Assembly: GCF_006345805.1 (NCBI RefSeq)
Contig: NC_042999.1
Coordinates: 112,530,001-112,594,000, forward strand
DNA: 64,000 nt
Reading direction: 5' to 3'
Source: Octopus sinensis
Taxonomy: Eukaryota
The notes below the pieces were generated by a model that saw nothing but the letters and a program-made list of their open reading frames with translations, ran no database searches and had not been told where the DNA came from. The stretch's first letter is position 1; every line of letters begins with the position of its first letter. Of this stretch, positions 666 through 31,372 are shown in pieces. A program made the position numbers and the translations under genes.

Positions 666-3165
666 ATGGAACAAATAACAATAGAAGCATCATTAAAAGA
701 TATACCGATTCCACCAAAAGATGTATATCTAAAAGAAGTGATTGCAAAATTAACAAACTTCACCCACCATTTACGATGGAAAGCTTTATTCTACGATAAA
801 AATAACCAGAGATTACTTATCACAATAGCAAAGGCTTTTCCGAAGGAATTTTCAAAACTAGATAAACACGCCCACCAAACAGCCACCTGGACGCCTTTGA
901 GAACGAACTATGGGATACTATTAAGAACTTAACATTTAAACGACACCCACTAAGGAATAATACTCACCAAAGAAGCTTAAAGGACCGACTACACAAACTG
1001 AAATCGCAAAAGGGAATTATTGTACAGTCTGACAAGACCAGGAACTCATATAATTTGGATATTAATTAATACTACCAGCTGTTGCATAAAGAAATGACTA
1101 AAAAATACAAAATAGTGCCTTATAACACTTTAAGATCTTTGAACTTATCTGCCAAGAAGATTATGACCACCAACAACATAGAAGAGAAAACTGAACCTTT
1201 CGCACCCTCCAGACCCTGCATAACAATTAAGGACCATAAAGAAAATTTCTTAACAGACATGAAAGTTAGACTAATCCGCCCTAATAAATCAGATCTATGT
1301 AAGCTAAGTAAATTAATCTTAGATAAATATATTCCTACTATAAAAAACAAAATCACTCTAGAATTAAGGTCAAATACCCACGACGTCCTTAATTGGTTCT
1401 CCAATATACAGAATAAAAATAGTTATAAGAATTACAACTCATCAATTAACCCTACGATTCTAAATAGCGTTCTGATGTTCGCAAAAAAACATGCAAAATT
1501 AACAATGAATGAAATTAAGGTGATCATAGAAGCTAGGAAATCTATAATAAAATTCGATAACAAACTATGGGTAAGGAAGGACACCCCTAATTATTCCGAC
1601 ATCATTATGGGGGTCCCGGACTCAGCACAGGTATATGATTTAGGGGGTATTTACCTATTATCACATTTACACGAAGAATTCCCAGATTAGAGGAGGCCTT
1701 TACAGAGACGATGCATTATTTATCCTTAAAAATACCTCAAATAGGAGACTTGAACTACTAAAGAAAAAATTATATAAGTTCTTTAAACAGTTTGGATTAA
1801 CCATCACAATAGGAAAAGAGCATAATTCTATTAACTATTTAGATGCCAATTGTAATTTAACCACTGAATTACATGAGCTGTACGTTAAACCGAATACCAA
1901 CTTCAAACACCTAAACTTTACAAAAAGAGGACTTGTACAGGCCATTAGTAAAAGAATTTCGTATCTCTCGCCCAACGCTTATGTTCAATAAGTATAAGGA
2001 ACACTACAACATTGCATTGGAAAAAGCAGGTTATAAGCAAAAATTAAGTACCTTCATTCAGAGCCTTATAAAAATAACCCGAATAACATAAATATCCATA
2101 ATTATTGAAATAGGAATAATAGCCAAAATATCTATAATAATAATCACAAAAACAATAACAATAACAATAATAGTGGTAATAATAAAAATAGTAGGAAGAA
2201 TAATAAGGTTCATAATAATATTAATAACAACATTAGACATGATAACGATAGAAATACTAATAATGGGAATGATAACAATAACAGAAAAAAAAATAATAAT
2301 AATAATAATAATAATAATTAAAATTATACACATAAAAGAACCAATAAAGTCCCAGTTAGTAATTATAATATCAAGGTAAATAAAATAAATCGAATAAGAA
2401 CAACCTTACCAAAGCTGATAGCAATAGTAATAAAAATAACAATAGAAAGAAGAAGAATTATAACTATAACTTTACGATCTACACTAATACTGAGGTCAGT
2501 TTTTACACCAAAAACAAAAATATCAAAATTAACAAGCGGAATAAAGATAACATCTGGCTAATAATCACCTTCGCGATGCAACTAAAAACCAATATAGTTA
2601 AATCTATAATGAAAGTTATAATTACGCACTTCAATATGAATGCAAAATACTCAGAAATCTTTAGCAATAAAATTAGAGTAGGTCATAGCCTAACTTGTAA
2701 CCTAGCTACTATCATAGCCTCTATCAACAATAAAAAGCTTCTATGAAACTAGGAAGAATAACAGTAAAAAGCACAACAACCAATTGATTGATATAATAAA
2801 TGATCCCCAAAATAACTCGCCCTCTAAAAATTCGGAAAACCACCTTATGATAATCCTCCCACCATATCATAGGCACAGATAATCTTATTAATCTATGTAG
2901 TTGCAGAGATAAAAATACTTGTGAATTCTTGAATAAATGTAAAACTAAAAATATAATCTACCAATGTGATGTATTCTCTAATAATTACAAGAAAAACTTA
3001 TATAGGAGCAACTAAAAATGAAATGAAACTTAGGTATAATTCCCATCGCTCAAGTTTAAGAAATAGAAGTAAGGCTAACTCTACCGGATTAAGTAGTTAC
3101 ATCTGGGAACTGAAAGGCAATAACATTAATTATATATTAGAATGGCGTATCCTGGCCAAAATATA
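666..3165 (+). mobile_element. Degenerate Penelope-like retroelement, Naiad-like (RT + GIY-YIG), with stops and frameshifts
   Basis: RT motifs MGVPDSAQVYDLGGIYLL and GLYRDD (~1607-1712); Asn-rich linker; CSCRDKNTCEFLNKC (CxCx5Cx5C) then NIIY..YIGATKNEMKLRYNSH..TGLSSYIW (GIY-YIG) at ~2895-3160. Confidence 0.85.
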
Positions 3166-3841: not shown

Positions 3842-4010
3842 GGCAGTTTAGCTTAATGGCAGAGTACTCAGTTGGTACCTGAGTGGTGTGGGTTCGAGTT
3901 CAGTGGGTGTCGGCTGACAACCTTTTCCATCTTATAAGGGTAAAATACTCAATCTTTCTGCTGTTTACATGGTTATACTGGTTTCGAAATATTACTTTCC
4001 AGTCTGTATA
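3842..4010 (+). mobile_element. tRNA-derived SINE or tRNA pseudogene head plus tail
   Basis: A box tagcttaatgg, anticodon arm ctcag-ttGGTac-ctgag, B box ggttcgagt; acceptor stem not intact; tail is present in inverted form at ~3680-3770. Confidence 0.55.
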
Positions 4011-6456: not shown

Positions 6457-7445
6457 AGAAAATAGTAAAAAGTGAAAAAACTACAGAAGGCTTAAATGTT
6501 AAAAAATATATATTTGCATCAATATGTCTGAAGAATATTAAAAAAATTTTTTCCCTCTTATAATGACATAGTTTTGAAGAAAGACCGGTTTCGCATTTAG
6601 CTTTTCAAATTTCTTACGATGTTGTGTTTATGTTCAATAGAGTTATCGTTATGTTTATGTTCAAAAGAGTTCTAAATAAGGGGAGGTAATGAGTGATTTC
6701 TTCCGGTGTAAGGGAGATAATCGCTTAAAAATGTTTTCCTTTCCCTTGGTGTGAATTTCTCTGTATCAGTATGTTGGCATGGTTAAATCTGGGCTTGTAC
6801 TTTTCAATGAAGAATGTTTCCTTGTTTAGTCTAATTTGTGTTGATGATCCGATAGCACATTGGTAAAATGGAAAGATTAAAAATTGTGGTAGTAGTTGCT
6901 TTGCGCATTTCTCAATGTGCTCACTAAAAGGTATCATTCTGTATTCTGGGAATGCAATCTGTTGTCGATGCAATGTGCATCTACGTCTGAGTGATAGTCC
7001 CGTGGATCCCACGTAGTCTTGGTGGCAGCCCGAGCATTTTATGACATAAATTATGTTTTCAGAGGCACAAGTAAAGTTAGATTTGATCTTGAATTTCTGT
7101 CCCTCTTTAAAGAGGAATTCTGATCCTTCTAGCAGGTTTGGACATGTTGCACAGTTCGATCTACCACATTTTTTTACTTTTGCATCCGTAATTTCAGAAG
7201 ACAATTTTGCCTTTGTGAGAATCTTTTTAAGTGATTTGGGTTGTTTGTAGCTTTTAATGATTTGGTGTATGTTTAGAATTTCCTTTAATTTGGGGTCCTT
7301 ATGAAGTATTGGTAAATTCTGGGTGATGATGGTGAAGGCTTCTTTGTTTCTGGGGTTGTATGTAGATATGTAAGGTAGTATTTTCGGGGAAGGTGTGTTG
7401 TTGTGTTGAACTTTTCTTAAAGTTTCTATGTTGATTTCTGTGCCT
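6457..7445 (-). mobile_element. 5'-truncated Penelope-like element, Neptune-like: linker Zn-finger + GIY-YIG endonuclease + 3' pLTR
   Basis: ORF 6725-7489(-): KCGRSNCATC..FTCASENIIYVIKCSGCHQDYVGSTGLSLRRRCTLH..ETFFIEKY; inserted in (TA)n. Confidence 0.9.
6577..6615 (-). ncRNA. Minimal type I hammerhead ribozyme, U3-A8 variant
   Basis: Reverse complement reads AAGAAA-U-UUGAAAA-GC-UAAAU-GC-GAAA-CCGG-UC-UUUCUU. Confidence 0.7.
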
Positions 7446-8052
7446 CTGAAAACATAATTTATGTCATAAAATGCTCGGGCTGCCACCAAGACTACGTGGG
7501 ATCCACGGGACTATCACTCAGACGTAGATGCACACTGCATCGACAACAGATTGCATTCCCAGAATACAGAATGATACCTTTTAGTGAGCACATTGAGAAA
7601 TGCGCAAAGCAACTACTACCACAATTTTTAATCTTTCCATTTTACCAATGTGCTATCGGATCATCAACACAAATTAGACTAAACAAGGAAACATTCTTCA
7701 TTGAAAAGTACAAGCCCAGACTTAACCATCCCAACATACTGATACAGAGAAATTCACACCAAGGGAAAGGAAAACATTTTTAAGCGATTATCTCCCTTAC
7801 ACCGGAAGAAATCACTCATTACCTCCCCTTATTTAGAACTCTTTTGAACATAAACATAACGATAACTCTATTGAACATAAACATAACATCGTAAGAAATT
7901 TGAAAAGCTAAATGCGAAACCGGTCTTTCTTCAAAACTATGTCATTATAAGAGGAAAAATTTTTTTTAATATTCTTCAGACATATTGATGCAAATATATA
8001 TTTTTTAAACATTTAAGCCTTCTGTAGTTTTTTCACTTTTTACTATTTTCTA
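7439..8052 (+). mobile_element. Inverted copy of the Penelope 3' end (inverted pLTR)
   Basis: Near-identical reverse complement of 6457-7068; ORF 7496-7783 repeats the GIY-YIG C-terminus. Confidence 0.92.
7893..7931 (+). ncRNA. Minimal type I hammerhead ribozyme, U3-A8 variant
   Basis: Stem I aagaaa/tttctt, core ttgaaaa, stem II gc/gc, gaaac-cg-gtc. Confidence 0.7.
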
Positions 8053-8607: not shown

Positions 8608-8762
8608 TATTAGAGACAAAACCACTATTTTGCAAAACAAACAAGGAAAGACTTAATCAATACATAAAATTTTAATAAAATTTATTAAAATTTTATGTAT
8701 TGATTAAGTCTTTCGTTGTTTGTTTTGCAAAATAGTGGTTTTGTCTCTAATAATATTTTATA
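8598..8762. repeat. Near-perfect ~165 bp palindrome within (TA)n
   Basis: aaaatattattagagacaaaacc... / ...ggttttgtctctaataatatttt, centre ~8680, one visible mismatch. Confidence 0.92.
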
Positions 8763-9160: not shown

Positions 9161-9239
9161 TGAGTATATGTGTTGTCTGTATGTGTGCCCGTCTGTCTGT
9201 ATGTGTGTGTCTGTCTGTATGTGTGTGTGTACGGGCCAC

Positions 9240-9416
9240 TAGCCACTAAAGCTTTTTTTTATTCTCTCTATGTTTATTTTCTTGTGTTCCTTTCTGTTGA
9301 AAAGTGTATGCTCAAAACATAAAAGACTTACTCACCTACCTGAGCGTTAAACTAATACACCTGTTTGTTGTTTACATCTTTTGTCTTCATCTTTTGTTTT
9401 TTTGTAAATTCCAACT
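9240..9416 (+). mobile_element. Short non-coding pLTR-like repeat with decayed HHR-like motif; related copies at 26940-27105(+), 30887-31036(-), 31166-31362(+)
   Basis: Shared ctttctgtNgaagagcgtaggctcgaaacgtaaaagac..ctgagcgttaaactaatacac..gtcttcgtcttttgt; all copies next to (TA)n. Confidence 0.75.
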
Positions 9417-9420
9417 ATAT

Positions 9421-12400
9421 ATAATGTTCGTCCTTCAGGTTCGAGGATTATCATTGACATCAATTGGTGGAATTGCTGCTATGAGACCGGAGGTGGCTGG
9501 TGAGGCCAATCCGGGCAAGAAAGCCCCTCCCACAGGTGGGGCAGAAGTGAGTAGGGGCTGTGCTATTGGTGCAGGTGGCTCTGGCTTTCCGCATCTGGCG
9601 TTTCTGTTCTGCTGACTGAATCCGTCTCTCCTCGGCTGTCTTTGCTCCTGTGGTGATTGCGCTGCGCCAGGATGAGCGGTCGGCAGCAAGTGTCTCCCAA
9701 GTCTCTGTGCCGATAGAGAAGTCTTTGAGAGAGACTTTGAGACTGTCTTTGAAGTGCTTCTTCTGCCCTCCGACTTTGCGTTTGCCCTGGCTGAGTTCAC
9801 CGTAGAAGAGCTGTTTTGGGATGCGAGTGTTGGACATGCGAGAGACGTGGCCTGCCCATCTCAGCTGGGCCTTGCGCATGATCGTGATGGTGCTAGGGAG
9901 ATCTGCCTGCTTCAGAACTTCCGTGTCTGGGACTTTGTCCTGCCAGCGGATGTGAAGGAGGTTCTGAAGACACCTAAGGTGGAAGTGGTTTATCTGGCGC
10001 TCGTGCCTTCGGTAAGCAGTCCACGTCTCGCAGCCGTATAGTAGGGTGGTAAGCACAACTGCCCGGTAGACTTTCAGCTTGGTGTTGAGGCTGATTCCTC
10101 TCCGCTCCCAGACTTTCTTTCGCAGTCTCCCAAACGCGCTACTTGCCTTGGAGATTCTGTTGATGATTTCAGCATCTATGTTGGCATTGCAGGAGAGAGT
10201 GCTGCCCAGGTAGGTGAAGTTTTCCACTTCGGTTTTCTTGGCACTGATGATGAGACCGATATTGTCACAGGCTGATGAGAACCTGTCCATCCCGAGCTGC
10301 ATATCCTGCTCATCGATTGCGTTAAGGGTGCAGTCATCAGCAAAGAGAAAGTCTCTGACGACTGTCTCCCTCACAGTTGAAAAATTTCCCGTCCGTCCTG
10401 TACTTGATGTCGATACCAGACTTGCAGTCCCTGAAGGCATCGGACAGCATTGCCGAGAACATGATGCTGAACAGTATTGGGGCCAGGACACAGCCCTGCC
10501 TGACTCCGTTGGTCACCTGGAAGGCTTCAGATGAGTTGCCGTCTTCAAGGACTCTGGCTATCATTCCGTCGTGGAACTGGCGGACAATTGCAATAAATTT
10601 GCTGGGGCAACCAAATTTTCCCATGACCTTCTAGAGTCCCTCCCGACTGACTGTATCTAAAGCCCTGGTGAGGTCAACAAAGGTCATGCAGAGGTCAAGG
10701 TGCTGCTCCATGCATTTCTCCTGGATCTGGCGGGCGGCGAATATCATGTCAGTGGTCCCTCGACCCGCGCGGAAGCCACACTGGCTCCAAGTGTTCCAGA
10801 AGGCGGTCAAGCAGGACTCGGGCCAGGATCTTGCCTGCTATGGACAAGAGGGAGATTCCTCGGTGGTTGTCGCAGGACTGCCGATCTCCTTTCCGCTTAT
10901 AAATGTGGACGATTGTTACGTCCCAGAAATCTTGAGGGAGTTGTTCCCTGTCCTACTTCGACTGGAACAGGCTGGTGAGCTGACTGATCATGGTGGGGCC
11001 GCCCGACTTGAACACCTCTGCAGGGATGGCATCAGAGCCTGGCGCTTTGCCGGTGGACATTTTTTTGATGGCTCTGCTCACTTCCTCGACTGCAGGGGGA
11101 ACAGCTAGCTCGTGGTTTGTCGGCACCTGGGGGAGTCGTGCGATGGCTTCCTCGTTGATCTGGGCTGGTCGGTTGAGCACGATGTTGAAATGCTCCACCC
11201 ATCTCTCCAGGATCAGCCTCTTGTTAGTCAGGAGTGAGATTCCATCCAAGCTGAGCAGGGGAGTTGATCCAAAGGACTGCGGTCCATAGACAGCTTTCAG
11301 CGCCTCGTAGAATTTCTTGGTGTCGTGTTTGTCTGCGTATCCCTGAATCTCATCCGCCTTGGCGCTTAACCATGCGTCTTGCATGAGGCGGAGTTTTGCC
11401 TGGACTGTGCTGCGAATGTTGTTGAAAGCAGCCTTCTTTGCCGTGCGGGTGGTGTCATTTTGGTGGGCCCGCAACAGACGGCGTTTCTCTTCCAGGAGCT
11501 TTTGGATTTCCTGGTCGGTTTCGTCGAACCAGTCTTGGTGGTTCCTCGTAACTTGGCCTAGAGTTTCAAGGGCGATGGAATGAACCGTGTCCCTGAACGA
11601 TTCCCACTGCTCATCGATGCTGGACTGGTCATTCCGAATGTCCAACAGCTTGCTGTCCATACATGACTGGAGATCTTGTGCAGTCAGCTGGTTCTTTAAT
11701 TTCGTGATGTTAAGCTTCCTCGTCACTTTCTGACCCTGTGGTCTTCTCTTAGGTTGGATGTAGAAATCCATCCTGGAGATGATGAGGCGATGGTCCGTCC
11801 AGCAATCAGCTCCACACATGGCTTTGACCAGTCTCACGTCCCGCCTGTCTTTCGCCCTGACGATGACGTAATCTATCAGATGCCAGTGTTTGGAGCGTGG
11901 ATGCATCCATGATGTCTTGTTGCGTGTTGGCAGACGGAACAAGGAGTTGGTAAGATCATGAGAGGCGCACACCCGCAGGAGGAGCTGCCCGTTGTTGTTG
12001 CACTTTCCGATTTCTTGCTTTCCCAGTACGCGATGCCAGGCTTGGTGGTCAGTCCCGACACGGGTGTTAAAGTCCCCAAGGAGGATGAGCTTCCCAGGCT
12101 GGGCTGACGTGATGAGGGAGTCGAGTTCCTCATAGAACCTGTCCTTAACTTCTTCAGGGTTGGTCATGGTGGGGGCGTAAGCGCTGATAATGGTCGCACT
12201 AGTCTTATTTCCAAGTGGGAGTTGCATCTTCATCAGCCGATCGTTGATACCCTCGGGGGAGCTTTCCAGTTTCCGCACGTGTACTGACTTGATGGCAAAA
12301 CCAACACCAGCCTCACGACGCTCTTCGCTGCTGCAACCACTCCAAAAAAAAGTGTAGCCGCCGCCCGTCTCTGTCAGCTGGCCTTTGTCCGCAATGCGGG

Positions 12401-13251
12401 TCTCGCTCAGTGCTGCGATATCGACATTGTATCGGCTCAGTTCTCTGGCCACCAGGCTCGTCTCTCTGCTTTGGTGTTGTCAAGCAGAGTTCTCACGTTC
12501 CAAGTTGCGAAAGTGAGCACCTTTGTTCGTTTTCTTTCTTTGTTTCGACCGCTTGGAAAGGATCCCCACCAGCCGCGGTTTGCTGACCAGGGTGTGGTGA
12601 GGCAGGCTATGTTTAGGGCAACCTTTTCTAGCCCCGTCCTCATGCTGTGGAGGCGAGCAGAGCGATCCTGAAGAGGGCTGCTCGGTCACTCAGGAGGCTG
12701 CCAGACTCCACTGCTGCCTCAGTTCAGTGAGGGGCGACCACATGTCCTAAGCCGCCTGTGTGTGGGTTCACGACTGCAGCTCCCAGTGTATCCTCACCTG
12801 CTACTTCGCCGTTTCCCCATCGCCACAGGACTTTGTGATGTTGGTGTCATGATGTCATGACGTGCACGTGACTTGGATTATAGTGAGGGTGACTTGCGCA
12901 GGATCAGCCTCACTCTCTCGTCCTGGTGCACCGGATCCAGTGGCAAGACAAAGTCAAGACGCCTGGGGGTAGACCAGGATGCAGGAGCTGCCGGAAGGTG
13001 GCACGCATGACGCAATCCAACCCCCGTAGGGGCTCCACTCCAGATTTATGTAGGTTTTTGGGTGGCCATTGACTCATGAGAGAGTTCCTCTGCCCTTTGA
13101 CAGGTTTTGTTTTTAGTCCTGCTGGGTGTCCAAATCACCCTCCTCATCAAGAAATCTTGGTGGGGTTGCCAGTTTAGTCGCCAACGACCCGACCATGTAA
13201 CAGGTTGTACTGGGTTACATGTTATCAGTAGCTCCAAGCAGAGACCTGACA
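9421..13251 (-). mobile_element. Near full-length RTE-clade LINE (APE + RT + C-terminal CCHH finger), frameshifted with small deletions
   Basis: TFATWNVRTL, IAALSETR, GVGF, SAYAPT, LGDFN, IDY, TDH (APE); KAPGSD, GVRQGCVLAP, LFADD, YLGS, LRWAGHVSRM (RT); CPTCGRGFLARIGLTSHLRSH; ~600 bp 5' UTR. Confidence 0.95.
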
Positions 13252-25450: not shown

Positions 25451-28400
25451 TACTTACATGTATATATTTAAATATATGTACACATATATACATACACATA
25501 CATATATTCATATATATACACACACACTTAAGTATGAATGTGTGCATTTATAAGAATTTATGAGTATGTATAGCATGATGAATATATGTGTGTGTATATA
25601 AATGTGTTTTATGAAGTTTTTGTTGAGTCATCCTTCACTTTGTTGACATTTTGAAGCAAGAAGGTAAAAAAGAAATTAAAGCCTTTTCTGTTAAGAACCA
25701 AATTATTGTTTAAGTTCTTCCAATATGACAATAAATATATTATTTGATGGATCTTTCACAAATCAAACTAACTTTTTTTGAATTTTTCTTATACATTTTA
25801 AACATTTTAAAATGAAATTATAGTCATACCTATAATAAATGAATGACAACAACCAAAATCTTCTCGTCTTTTTGGCACTGTCAGCAGAATGTTTAGTAAA
25901 ACTTTTCAGAGAAAGAACTTCAGAAATGTCTCTAATATATGGATGACATTTTCAGATAATTTATCAACACTACAAAGGAGTCAAAAATTAAATAGCAACT
26001 TTATACTTGCGCTATGAAAAAGAAATGCTAATTATAAATTAGATTAAAATCAATTACAGTATTATTTCTAATACAGAAGTCACAAAACTGAAATAAATAC
26101 AAAGAGTAACATATAATCTTTTGAGTACAGAAATGTGTATGAGTGTTTGGAGGTTAGGAAGTACATCGAATAAAGAATGTACATATACATGTACATTTGC
26201 TGCTGTTGTTGTTTTTTGGTCAAAACTCAACTCTCATTGAACAGACCTATGGTCAAGAGTTCTAGCTATGACTATCCTGTCTTATATTAGTGATTCCATT
26301 ATAAGATGTCCTTAACTTTTCAAGATGATAGGGTGTGATTTGAAGTGATGTGAGTGTTATTTCTAGCAATCAATGTGACACAGCTTCGATTTTAATCCCT
26401 TTTATATATTATATATACATGTGTGGGGGGTGGCACGTGTGTGTATGCATGTGTGTGTGTATTGATGGATTAATAAGAGGTGGATAGGTAACACTTATGA
26501 CCCTTTTCAGTGCTCTGTGACTGGTGAGAGGAAGGGAGAAAAATTTTCTCTACTCTAAGACCTGACATGAATACTTACAGCAGAGAAAATTCCCTAAAAC
26601 AACATAAAGGCTACGTTGTGGCATTATACCAAGTAATGATTTAAATCTACCATCCAAGGCATTATGCTTAACTATGTTTTCATAAAGGAAACCAATATTT
26701 TCCTCAGTATTTACTTTTTATCTTTTAATTGTGACAATCACTGGACTGCAACTATTCTGGGACAAATTGATTCAAAACTTATTTTTAAGTCTGGTACTTA
26801 TTCCATTGGTCTCTTTTGCTGAACTTCTAAGATACAGGGATGTAAACAAACCAACACTGGTTGTCAAGCAGTGATAGTGGACAGAAACAAACACCAAAAC
26901 ATGCACACTCACACCCATACACACATTTTATATATATCACTAGCCACTGCACATTCTTTATTTTCTCTCCTTGTTTCTTTCTGTGGAAGAGTGTAGGCTT
27001 GAAATGGTAAAGACTTTTTCATTTCCCGGGCATTAAACTAGTACATCTGTTTGTTGTCTGCACCACCTGTCTTCGTCTTTTGTTTTTTTTGTGAATTCTC
27101 CCCCTATATATATATATATATATATATGATGGGATTCCACAGAGTTTCTATCAACCAAGTTAACTCACAAGGTATTGGTCAGCCTGGGGCTATTGTAGAA
27201 AGCACTTGTCCAAGGTACCAAGCAGTGGGACTGAACCTGGAACCACATGGTTGTAAAGTAAGCTTCTTAAACACACACCTATACCAGAGAAGCTTTCTTT
27301 TTTTTCTGCTTTGTATCAATATTGTTTTTATATTTAAGACAGGGCACTTAAGGCAAATACTAGAATGCTAAACAAGAAGCAGTATCTACTTTGATGTCCA
27401 ATGCTCCATTCAGGTCTTGGTAAAATACACTCAGTAAAGTTGCTACTATGATTACCAATTTCATCCACTAACAAAAATTAATATTCTCTCAGTTTATATT
27501 TATTTTGTTCTATCAAACTCGATCTTGAAAGTATAAATTTTATTATAACGTTGCTAATATTCTTTTCTACTCAAGGCACAAGGTCCGAAACTTTTGGGAA
27601 GGGGGCCAGTATATAACTGGTACTTAATTTATTGACCCAAAAAAGATGAAAGGCAAAGTCAACCTCGGTGAAATTTGAACTCAGAAACATAAAGACAGAC
27701 GAAATACCACTAAGCAAAATGTTGCTAATATTGTGAAACAAATAGCATAAAGTTTACTGTAAGCCTAGTTTTAATTTCCTGTGACAAACCAGTTAATTTT
27801 AAGTAAATATTTTGGTGGGATAGTTAGCAATAAATATAAGGTGGTGAGCTGACAGAACCATTAACACACCAGACAAAATGCTTAACATCATTTTCTAATT
27901 GTCTTTACGAGTTCAAACTCCACCAAGGTCATCTTGCCTGCCATCATTTCAGAGTCAATAAAATAAGCACCAATTGAGTATTAGTGCAAAGACAAAAAAG
28001 AAAATTCAGGCCTTGTGCCAATAGTAGAAAGGATTATCTATATTTTACATCTAGTGTTGATGTAAATATTTTTTAAAATTTTTATCTGTGAAAACGAGAT
28101 TACTAATCCATAAAATTTTTATCTTATTAACAGCTCGCATAAGGCACTTCATTATACTTATGCTATTGCTTTCAAATTTTGGCACAAGGCCAGAAATTTG
28201 GGGAAGGGGGAAGTTGGTCACTTGACCCCCAGAGTTCAACAGGTACTTATTTTATCAATCCCAAAAGGATGAAAGGCAAAGTGAACCTTAACAAAATTTA
28301 AAATCAGAGATTAAAGATGGATGAAATGCTGCTAAGCATTTTTCTTGGCGTGCTAACGATTTTGCCATATATAACTATTGATATTAGAAATAAAAGCATG

Positions 28401-30683: not shown

Positions 30684-31097
30684 TATATATATATACATAT
30701 ATATCATTTTCATTTTTTTTTCATTATGTATATAGATATTATAATTCTTTTATCTTTTACTTACCTCATAATATGATAACGAATAAAAAAAATAATAAGG
30801 AATAAATATATATATAGAGAGAGAAATAAAATCTGTAATGTAATCCCTAAGTTAAAGACATTAATATTAATAAAGGTTACGAACTAAAAGACGAAGACAG
30901 GTGGTGTAGACAACAAACAGATGTAATAGTATAACGCTCGAGAAGTGAAAAAGTCTTTAACGTTTCGAGCCTACGCACTTTCACAGAAAGAAACAAGGAG
31001 AGAAAATAAAGAATGTGTAGTGGGTAGCGATCTATGTGTGTGTGTATAGTAAATCCCCCCAAAAAACGAAGAACAAACATAAAAAAACAACGCGAGG

Positions 31098-31154
<57 letters not shown>

Positions 31155-31372
31155 CAGGACGCCATGATAGATCGTCAGCTACTACGCGCATTTTTTTCTC
31201 TCCTTGTTTCCCTCCTTGTTTTTTTCTGCGTATCTTTCTGTCGAAGAGCGTAGGCTCGAAACGTAAAAGACTTTTTCTATTCCTGAGCGCTATACTAATA
31301 CATTGGTTTGTTTGTACTTCACCTGCCTTCGTCTTTTGTTTATTTTCGTAAACTTTCCCTTCATATATATAT

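What the first reader, a model, noticed from the sequence alone, without database searches (positions are those of the whole stretch)
31233..31270. Multi-copy non-canonical HHR-like core CUGU-N-GAA in a ~180-bp repeat
Seen: UCUUU-CUGUCGAA-GAGC-GUAG-GCUC-GAAA-CG-UA-AAAGA. All four copies (9290, 26975, 30955 minus, 31233) have CUGU rather than CUGA and one extra nucleotide before stem II, so the deviation is family-wide. Stems I, II and the ACGU palindrome are intact in the best copy. Inference: either a new catalytic variant, or a ribozyme-derived fold kept as a recognition signal in a SINE-like Penelope parasite.
Basis: partly seen in the sequence, partly recalled or inferred. Interest (0 to 1): 0.75.

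Follow-up and report, generated by a model that had tools for sequence, protein, structure and literature searches.

The report
Penelope retroelement hammerhead with U6 core
These four repeats are cut-short tail ends of a Penelope-like jumping gene with over 20,000 copies in this animal genome, and their small hammerhead RNA motif has a U where hammerheads normally keep an A; the rest of the motif has stayed fixed, so it likely still folds as a hammerhead but is predicted to cut slowly, and the element likely spreads without needing fast cutting.

Summary
The motif is real, but it is not a SINE parasite. The four copies are 5'-truncated 3' ends of a Neptune-type Penelope-like element (PLE). 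Near-complete 4.4-kb units with reverse transcriptase and GIY-YIG endonuclease carry the motif in both pseudo-LTRs. The extra nucleotide before stem II is a published trait of PLE minimal hammerheads; only A6→U is unusual. U6 dominates every age group: 22,734 pattern hits, U6 in 97 of the first 100 listed, A6 in none. A sister family and metagenome relatives keep A6, so U6 is likely derived. Between subfamilies only N7, H17 and one stem-edge base change, against 55 of 134 flank columns (p=2e-6). That is the hammerhead constraint pattern, but there is no covariation inside the lineage. About 1% of young copies start at the predicted cut site, within background. Best reading (0.5): a folded but slowed, probably protein-assisted ribozyme. 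Main rival (0.33): a dead recognition fold. Cleavage is untested. I found no report in print (Lünse 2017 unreadable here). This scan has already noted the same thing 29 times in at least 6 genomes, this one included.

The parts
31233..31270 (+). Type I minimal hammerhead motif: stem I 31233-31237/31266-31270, core CUGUCGA 31238-31244 (U6 = 31241, N7 = 31242), extra A 31245, stem II 31246-31249/31254-31257, loop GUAG, GAAA 31258-31261, ACGU palindrome 31261-31264, predicted cut after A17 (31265)
   Evidence: architecture as in PMC4209133
31154..31361 (+). 5'-truncated 3' end of the Neptune-type PLE (middle-aged subfamily, N7=C, H17=A), between (TA)n tracts
   Evidence: 81% to the 3' end of near-complete unit L161 over 224 nt, E 4e-55; 91-96% to 39 other genomic copies
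30872..31035 (-). Older 5'-truncated copy (N7=G, H17=U); motif at 30954-30991 with G8A and A10.2U damage
26938..27113 (+). Older 5'-truncated copy (N7=G, H17=U); motif at 26976-27013, decayed
9231..9423 (+). Oldest of the four copies (N7=U, H17=A); motif at 9289-9326, decayed
31049..31097 (-). 3'-terminal scrap of the sister PLE family that keeps the canonical CUGANGA core; this scrap is too short to include the hammerhead
   Evidence: 83% over 52 nt to L270, E 9e-09

Best explanation
The motif is the pseudo-LTR minimal hammerhead of a Neptune-type Penelope-like retrotransposon lineage that carries U instead of A at core position 6; it likely still folds as a hammerhead under selection, is predicted to cut slowly and probably only with help (a second copy or the element's own protein), and the element likely inserts mostly from uncut RNA. 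Shown: the element anatomy, U6 in every age group, A6 in relatives, the pattern of constraint, and insertions that span the cut site. Inferred: reverse transcription starts about 100 nt 3' of the cut site at (TA)n targets and usually stops early, which gives the short copies. Also inferred: the 38-nt motif is kept by selection on source elements. Untested: any cleavage, dimer formation through ACGU, and protein assistance.
For: Anatomy: L161, L163 and L168 have the motif twice, 4,413-4,423 nt apart, in direct repeats 96-99% alike. L161 has an 835-codon open frame with RVT_1 (E 9.5e-08, above cut-off) and a weak GIY-YIG hit (E 0.006, below cut-off), plus DKG, YIDD, a CX4CxxC linker and IIY-YIG motifs. 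U6 fixation: 97 of the first 100 of 22,734 hits, A6 0; with stems fixed and core free, 97 of 100 of 16,228; oldest group 80 U, 15 C, 5 A of 100 listed; 79 of 82 readable copies retrieved without regard to the motif; 7 of 7 readable copies in 600 kb of arbitrary DNA. The 30 A6 copies fetched of 172 fall among U6 copies of several subfamilies. Constraint: on trees built from flanks only, 166 copies, just columns 2.5, 7 and 17 of 38 show lineage-level change, against 55 of 134 flank columns (1 of 36 when N7 and H17 are set aside; Fisher p 2e-6). On the 86 unselected copies: 1 of 36 vs 47 of 141 (p 9e-5), and vs 16 of 68 in the 3' flank alone (p 0.005). N7 and H17 are the free positions of the published consensus CUGANGAH...GAAAN..NUH; the chance that 3 variable columns include both is 0.004. 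C3, G8, G12, A15.1 and U16.1 are kept and no subfamily has G17. U6 is derived: sister family CUGAYGA (5,749 hits) and 12 of 12 motif hits in 80 metagenome loci of relatives have A6. Literature: a natural A6C hammerhead cleaves slowly but detectably (kobs <0.1/min, PMC3088659); the Anolis PLE hammerhead cleaves only with the PLE protein and its cleavage is not needed for insertion in vitro (PMC11167929).
Against: No cleavage was measured. In a full single and double mutant scan, all changes in the CUGA region except the C3-G8 swap gave low activity, with no rescue (PMC9901934, passages). Stem II and loop 2 are invariant in sequence inside the lineage, with no compensatory change; that fits sequence-specific binding as well as catalysis. 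No genomic footprint of cutting: about 43 young copies start at the cut site (19 of 30 loci read, scaled to 68 hits) against about 20 at a control site 5 nt upstream (11 of 30, scaled to 54). That is about 1% of a roughly estimated 4,000 copies, within the 0.2-0.6% per nt seen upstream, and the site offers TA microhomology. U6 allows a UGU/ACG helix that closes the core in the isolated 38-mer (G5-C15.2 probability 0.45-0.98 in 5 U6 copies, at most 0.08 in 8 natural A6 copies). With 40 nt of flank, stem II exceeded probability 0.5 in only 3 of 13 copies. Poly-T slippage may inflate the flank counts. The long copies have 5' frameshifts, so present activity is not shown.
Confidence: 0.5

Rival explanations
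1. Catalytically dead hammerhead kept as a sequence-specific recognition or folding element for the element's own RT-endonuclease. U6 may be favoured because it closes the core and protects the template from cutting.
For: A6 changes are strongly deleterious in vitro. Stem II and loop 2 are invariant without covariation. No cut-site peak of 5' ends. Closed-core pairing is predicted with U6. Cleavage is dispensable for Anolis PLE insertion in vitro. U6 motif hits outnumber canonical ones about four to one, 22,713 vs 5,749, with patterns that are not identical.
Against: Every catalytic and core position stayed fixed while N7 took all four letters and H17 only A or U. A plain closed hairpin should favour U7, which pairs with A14, yet C, G and A subfamilies were abundant. 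No protein-binding data.
Confidence: 0.33
2. A fully active new core variant: the GUAG loop, the extra A or the protein compensate for U6.
For: Strict hammerhead-type constraint across subfamilies; the loop differs from the A6 sister family (GUAG vs UCC or UUU), which could be a co-adaptation.
Against: No double mutant rescued the CUGA region in a type III hammerhead; min-HHRs are slow even with A6; no cut-site footprint.
Confidence: 0.1
3. The constraint acts on DNA (pseudo-LTR promoter or endonuclease site), or the motif merely hitchhikes.
For: The motif lies in the pseudo-LTR, which is thought to hold the promoter; invariance without covariation.
Against: Neutral hitchhiking is rejected (p 2e-6 to 0.005). 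A DNA motif gives no reason for N7 and H17 to be the variable sites (p 0.004). Stem I position 2.4/1.4 is C-G here and G-C or G-U in the sister family.
Confidence: 0.07

Closest known systems
Minimal type I hammerheads (min-HHR) in the pseudo-LTRs of metazoan PLEs (Cervera and De la Pena 2014, PMC4209133; read parts 1-2 of 4 and supplement parts 1-2 of 3)
   Same: Place in both pseudo-LTRs, mostly solo truncated copies, 4-5 bp stem I, extra base between 9 and 10.1, G10.1-C11.1, palindromic CG in place of stem III. The Acropora Neptune example (CUGACGAA, 4-bp stem II, tetraloop, CG) has the same layout and matches the motif beside metagenome relatives of our RT.
   Different: U at position 6. 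All 56 representatives in their Fig. S3 have A6, and their descriptor was built on the conserved core, so U6 forms would be missed. Their families vary much; this lineage is nearly invariant.
Neptune clade of EN+ Penelope-like elements (Craig et al. 2021, PMC8557442; passages)
   Same: RT followed by a CX2-5CxxC linker and C-terminal GIY-YIG; tandem pseudo-LTR structure; microsatellite targets.
   Different: The paper says canonical hammerheads are universal in C-terminal EN+ PLEs; this lineage has a non-canonical one. Naiads, which lack canonical motifs, have the endonuclease at the N-terminus, unlike this element.
Natural A6C hammerhead of phage Bcep176 (Perreault et al. 2011, PMC3088659; passages and section 3 part 2)
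   Same: Natural change at position 6, low but detectable activity.
   Different: A single phage example with C, not a U fixed in tens of thousands of retroelement copies.
Poseidon PLE of Anolis carolinensis (PMC11167929; passages and section 3 part 2)
   Same: Reverse transcription starts 3' of the hammerhead; uncut RNA is the main template; AT-rich targets; cleavage needs protein.
   Different: Different PLE clade; there the ORF starts inside the motif, here the first ATG lies about 700 nt downstream.
Non-LTR retrozymes (bioRxiv 10.64898/2026.07.22.740005; part 1 of 5)
   Same: Hammerhead-bearing repeats related to PLE pseudo-LTRs.
   Different: Retrozymes are non-coding tandem units of fixed length; these copies are variably truncated ends of a coding element, and 6 of 162 sampled run into the next unit.

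Membership tests
EN+ Penelope-like element (Neptune type) | Single ORF with RT and C-terminal GIY-YIG endonuclease | tested here: met
   L161 835-codon frame: RVT_1 above cut-off, GIY-YIG E 0.006 below cut-off; 1,220 homologs, many with PF00078/PF26215/PF01541; 5' frameshifts in three long copies
EN+ Penelope-like element (Neptune type) | Direct-repeat pseudo-LTRs from partial tandem units | tested here: met
   L161, L163, L168, L169: repeats 96-99% alike over 400-1,127 nt
EN+ Penelope-like element (Neptune type) | CX2-5CxxC linker between RT and endonuclease | tested here: met
   CSRPRCRTC at residue 702; definition from PMC8557442
EN+ Penelope-like element (Neptune type) | RT phylogeny places it in Neptune rather than Nematis | tested here: inconclusive
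   No reference tree was built. Indirect: relatives at 54-57% identity carry the published Acropora Neptune hammerhead
PLE min-HHR | Stem I, stem II with G10.1-C11.1, extra base 9b, palindromic 15.2-16.2, NUH | tested here: met
PLE min-HHR | Core CUGANGA (A6) | tested here: not met
   U6 in 97 of 100; so it is a variant, not a plain member
Hammerhead ribozyme | Compensatory base changes in stems | tested here: inconclusive
   None inside the lineage; one between sister families at 2.4/1.4
Hammerhead ribozyme | Site-specific self-cleavage after position 17 | not testable with these tools
   Only contigs of runs guessed to be RNA; genomic footprint test negative
Rfam hammerhead families | Covariance-model score above gathering threshold | tested here: not met
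   0 hits in L101, L110 and also in canonical sister L289, so Rfam does not model these minimal forms; none among the 150 of 428 window hits listed
SINE or non-autonomous retrozyme | Fixed non-coding unit with its own 5' end | tested here: not met
   5' ends spread over 10-300+ nt and run on into coding sequence

The most novel reading that the evidence does not exclude
U6 is an evolved latch: it pairs the core (UGU) with the ACG palindrome and holds the ribozyme shut until the element's own protein opens it, after which it cleaves well. This would be a protein-gated natural hammerhead with a core base thought to be invariant, and if the scan's unchecked notes on other animals hold, one that arose or spread more than once.
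Probability: 0.15. Interest if true: 0.75.

Novelty: new variant of a known kind. Interest (0 to 1): 0.5.

Why it matters
Why PLEs carry hammerheads is an open question: proposed RNA processing, dispensable in one in vitro system, possibly parasitic. This genome holds a natural experiment. A lineage with a damaged-looking core and more than 20,000 copies sits beside a canonical sister family, and natural A6 copies of the same subfamilies exist as controls. If the U6 motif cuts, the hammerhead core consensus is looser than the descriptors assume and surveys miss tens of thousands of motifs. If it does not cut, the constraint shows a non-catalytic job for the fold.

Tried and rejected
SINE or retrozyme reading: rejected. 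'Extra nucleotide is novel': rejected. 'U6 is decay of old copies and young ones are canonical': rejected, the youngest group has U6 in 28 of 29. 'A hidden A6 subfamily': not seen; the A6 copies fetched (30 of 172) are scattered, though 5 of 100 in the oldest group leaves a small one possible. Rfam gave nothing useful. No solved structure for the protein. RNA evidence: three runs guessed to be RNA cover the motif as contigs, which cannot show ends, strand or level; one raw DNA run under the same label did not cover it; no conclusion drawn. Cut-site footprint: about twofold over one control site but within the upstream background; no positive control on the canonical sister family was run, so the test's power is unknown. 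Lineage-level change was measured by step counts on present-day copies, so the order and number of changes at N7 are not established. Rows dropped before the counts: 41 of 207 (5 sister-family, 29 chosen for A6, 7 gappy); a further 80 chosen by motif-containing queries. Print searches for a U6 core: 'hammerhead'+'A6U', CUGU terms, Penelope/Neptune/octopus: no report in the listings. Lünse, Weinberg and Breaker 2017 (PMC5785218), the large survey of PLE hammerhead variants, is not held and may list U6 forms; the per-mutant data of PMC9901934 were not read.

Full report
Observation. The window holds four copies, all with U at hammerhead position 6 and an extra A before stem II. The exact core 25-mer occurs 2,512 times in the 2.72-Gb genome G000 and its reversed control never; a CpG-tolerant pattern with positions 6 and 7 free gives 22,734 hits. 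Eight copies spanning the motif in 600 kb of arbitrary DNA suggest roughly 36,000 in all (rough). The host looks like an octopod from its repeats; that is recalled and not tested.

What the repeat is. All copies end at the same place before a (TA)n tract and differ at the 5' end: homology reached 10 to 300+ nt upstream of the core in 60 copies. Longer copies run through about 0.9-1.2 kb of pyrimidine-rich sequence into GIY-YIG and RT remnants. A protein search gave 150 scored matches. Of 20 regions fetched around long frames, four had the motif twice in direct repeats; in L161, L163 and L168 the two are 4,413-4,423 nt apart, and L169 is shorter. L161 has an 835-codon open frame with RVT_1 above cut-off and a weak GIY-YIG hit, with DKG, YIDD, a CX4CxxC linker and IIY-YIG. 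The linker marks Neptune and Nematis PLEs (PMC8557442). Metagenome relatives at 54-57% identity carry the hammerhead published for an Acropora Neptune element. So these are truncated ends of a Neptune-type PLE, not a SINE. The long copies are frameshifted near their 5' ends, so present activity is not shown.

What is and is not unusual. [quoted passage not shown] Their consensus is CUGANGAH and all 56 representatives have A6. Only A6→U is new here.

U6 is fixed and derived. U6 stands in 97 of the first 100 hits with positions 6-7 free (3 C, 0 A), 97 of 100 with the whole core free (2 C, 1 A), and 80 of 100 in the oldest group (15 C, 5 A). Only 172 exact-stem copies have A6; the 30 fetched fall among U6 copies of several subfamilies. 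Groups defined by flank motifs range from 0.03 (youngest) to about 0.2 mean pairwise distance and all have a U6 majority. A sister family with a similar 3' end keeps CUGAYGA (5,749 hits for a canonical pattern); a broad U6 pattern gives 22,713 (control 48; the patterns are not identical). All 12 motif hits in 80 metagenome loci have A6, some of them probably chance hits. Runs under four organism labels, from three studies, hold the family with N7 and H17 polymorphic and list no difference at U6 at 2% or more, with 12 rows not shown. If the octopus calibration of PMC13282606 applies (distance 0.09 = 25 My), the lineage has carried U6 for some tens of millions of years.

Selection. On trees built from flank columns only, 3 of 38 motif columns show lineage-level change: N7, H17 and 2.5 at the outer edge of stem I. 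55 of 134 flank columns do (p 2e-6 with N7 and H17 set aside; 166 of 207 copies). The result holds on 86 copies retrieved without regard to the motif (p 9e-5; 3' flank only p 0.005). N7 and H17 are the two free positions of the hammerhead consensus (chance 0.004). Against a purely catalytic reading, stem II and loop 2 are invariant in sequence and no compensatory change occurs inside the lineage; the one covarying pair is between families.

Does it cut? Not measurable here. Changes in the CUGA region gave low activity in a full mutant scan (PMC9901934), and a natural A6C form cleaves at under 0.1 per minute (PMC3088659). Folding of the isolated 38-mer shows that U6 allows UGU to pair with ACG and close the core (0.45-0.98 in 5 U6 copies, at most 0.08 in 8 A6 copies), but A6 forms are predicted to mispair in other ways, and with flanks stem II held in only 3 of 13. 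This is a weak lead. Nearly all insertions span the predicted cut. About 43 young copies start there against about 20 at a control site, about 1% of copies and within the upstream background; none of the 19 read continues into a full unit. This matches the Anolis PLE, where uncut RNA is the template and the ribozyme needs the protein. RNA runs were contigs only.

Verdict. A real, selected, lineage-wide variant of a known motif. Most likely a slowed, helper-dependent hammerhead whose cutting is not needed for most insertions (0.5); a dead recognition fold is close behind (0.33). I found no report of it in five searches, but could not read Lünse et al. 2017. The scan has noted the same thing 29 times in at least 6 genomes, this one included; those notes are unchecked and are not counted as support. 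Interest 0.5: modest as a discovery, useful as a ready test of what PLE hammerheads are for.

Noticed in passing
window 6541-7967: A different PLE fragment (GIY-YIG frame, 261 aa on -) with a 529-nt, 99% inverted repeat, the usual inverted 5'-truncated PLE arrangement; a scan for a canonical core near it printed nothing.
   Followed up: partly
window 9460-12479 (-): Frameshifted LINE with endonuclease and RT remnants, RTE-like by recall, ending just beside the 9231-9423 copy.
   Followed up: no
window 1070-2746 (+): Remnant frames resembling another PLE RT.
   Followed up: no
window 8613-8747: 135-bp near-perfect palindrome, MITE-like; scores only as a miRNA look-alike.
   Followed up: no
window 3842-3912 (+): tRNA-like match, 32.2 bits against a gathering score of 29; probably a SINE head.
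   Followed up: no
window 31242 (N7), family-wide: N7 takes all four letters in different subfamilies while its neighbours are frozen; it may change faster than neutral flank sites, which could reflect escape from host silencing. Not tested.
   Followed up: partly
L300, L311, L321, L352, L016: Some copies carry a 30-35 nt tandem duplication at the 3' terminus, reminiscent of the optional PLE 'tail'.
   Followed up: no
L269-L298: Canonical sister families share stem II GAGC/GCUC with 3-nt loops; the published coral Neptune motif has GGGC/GCUC, so stem II sequence is conserved beyond pairing.
   Followed up: partly
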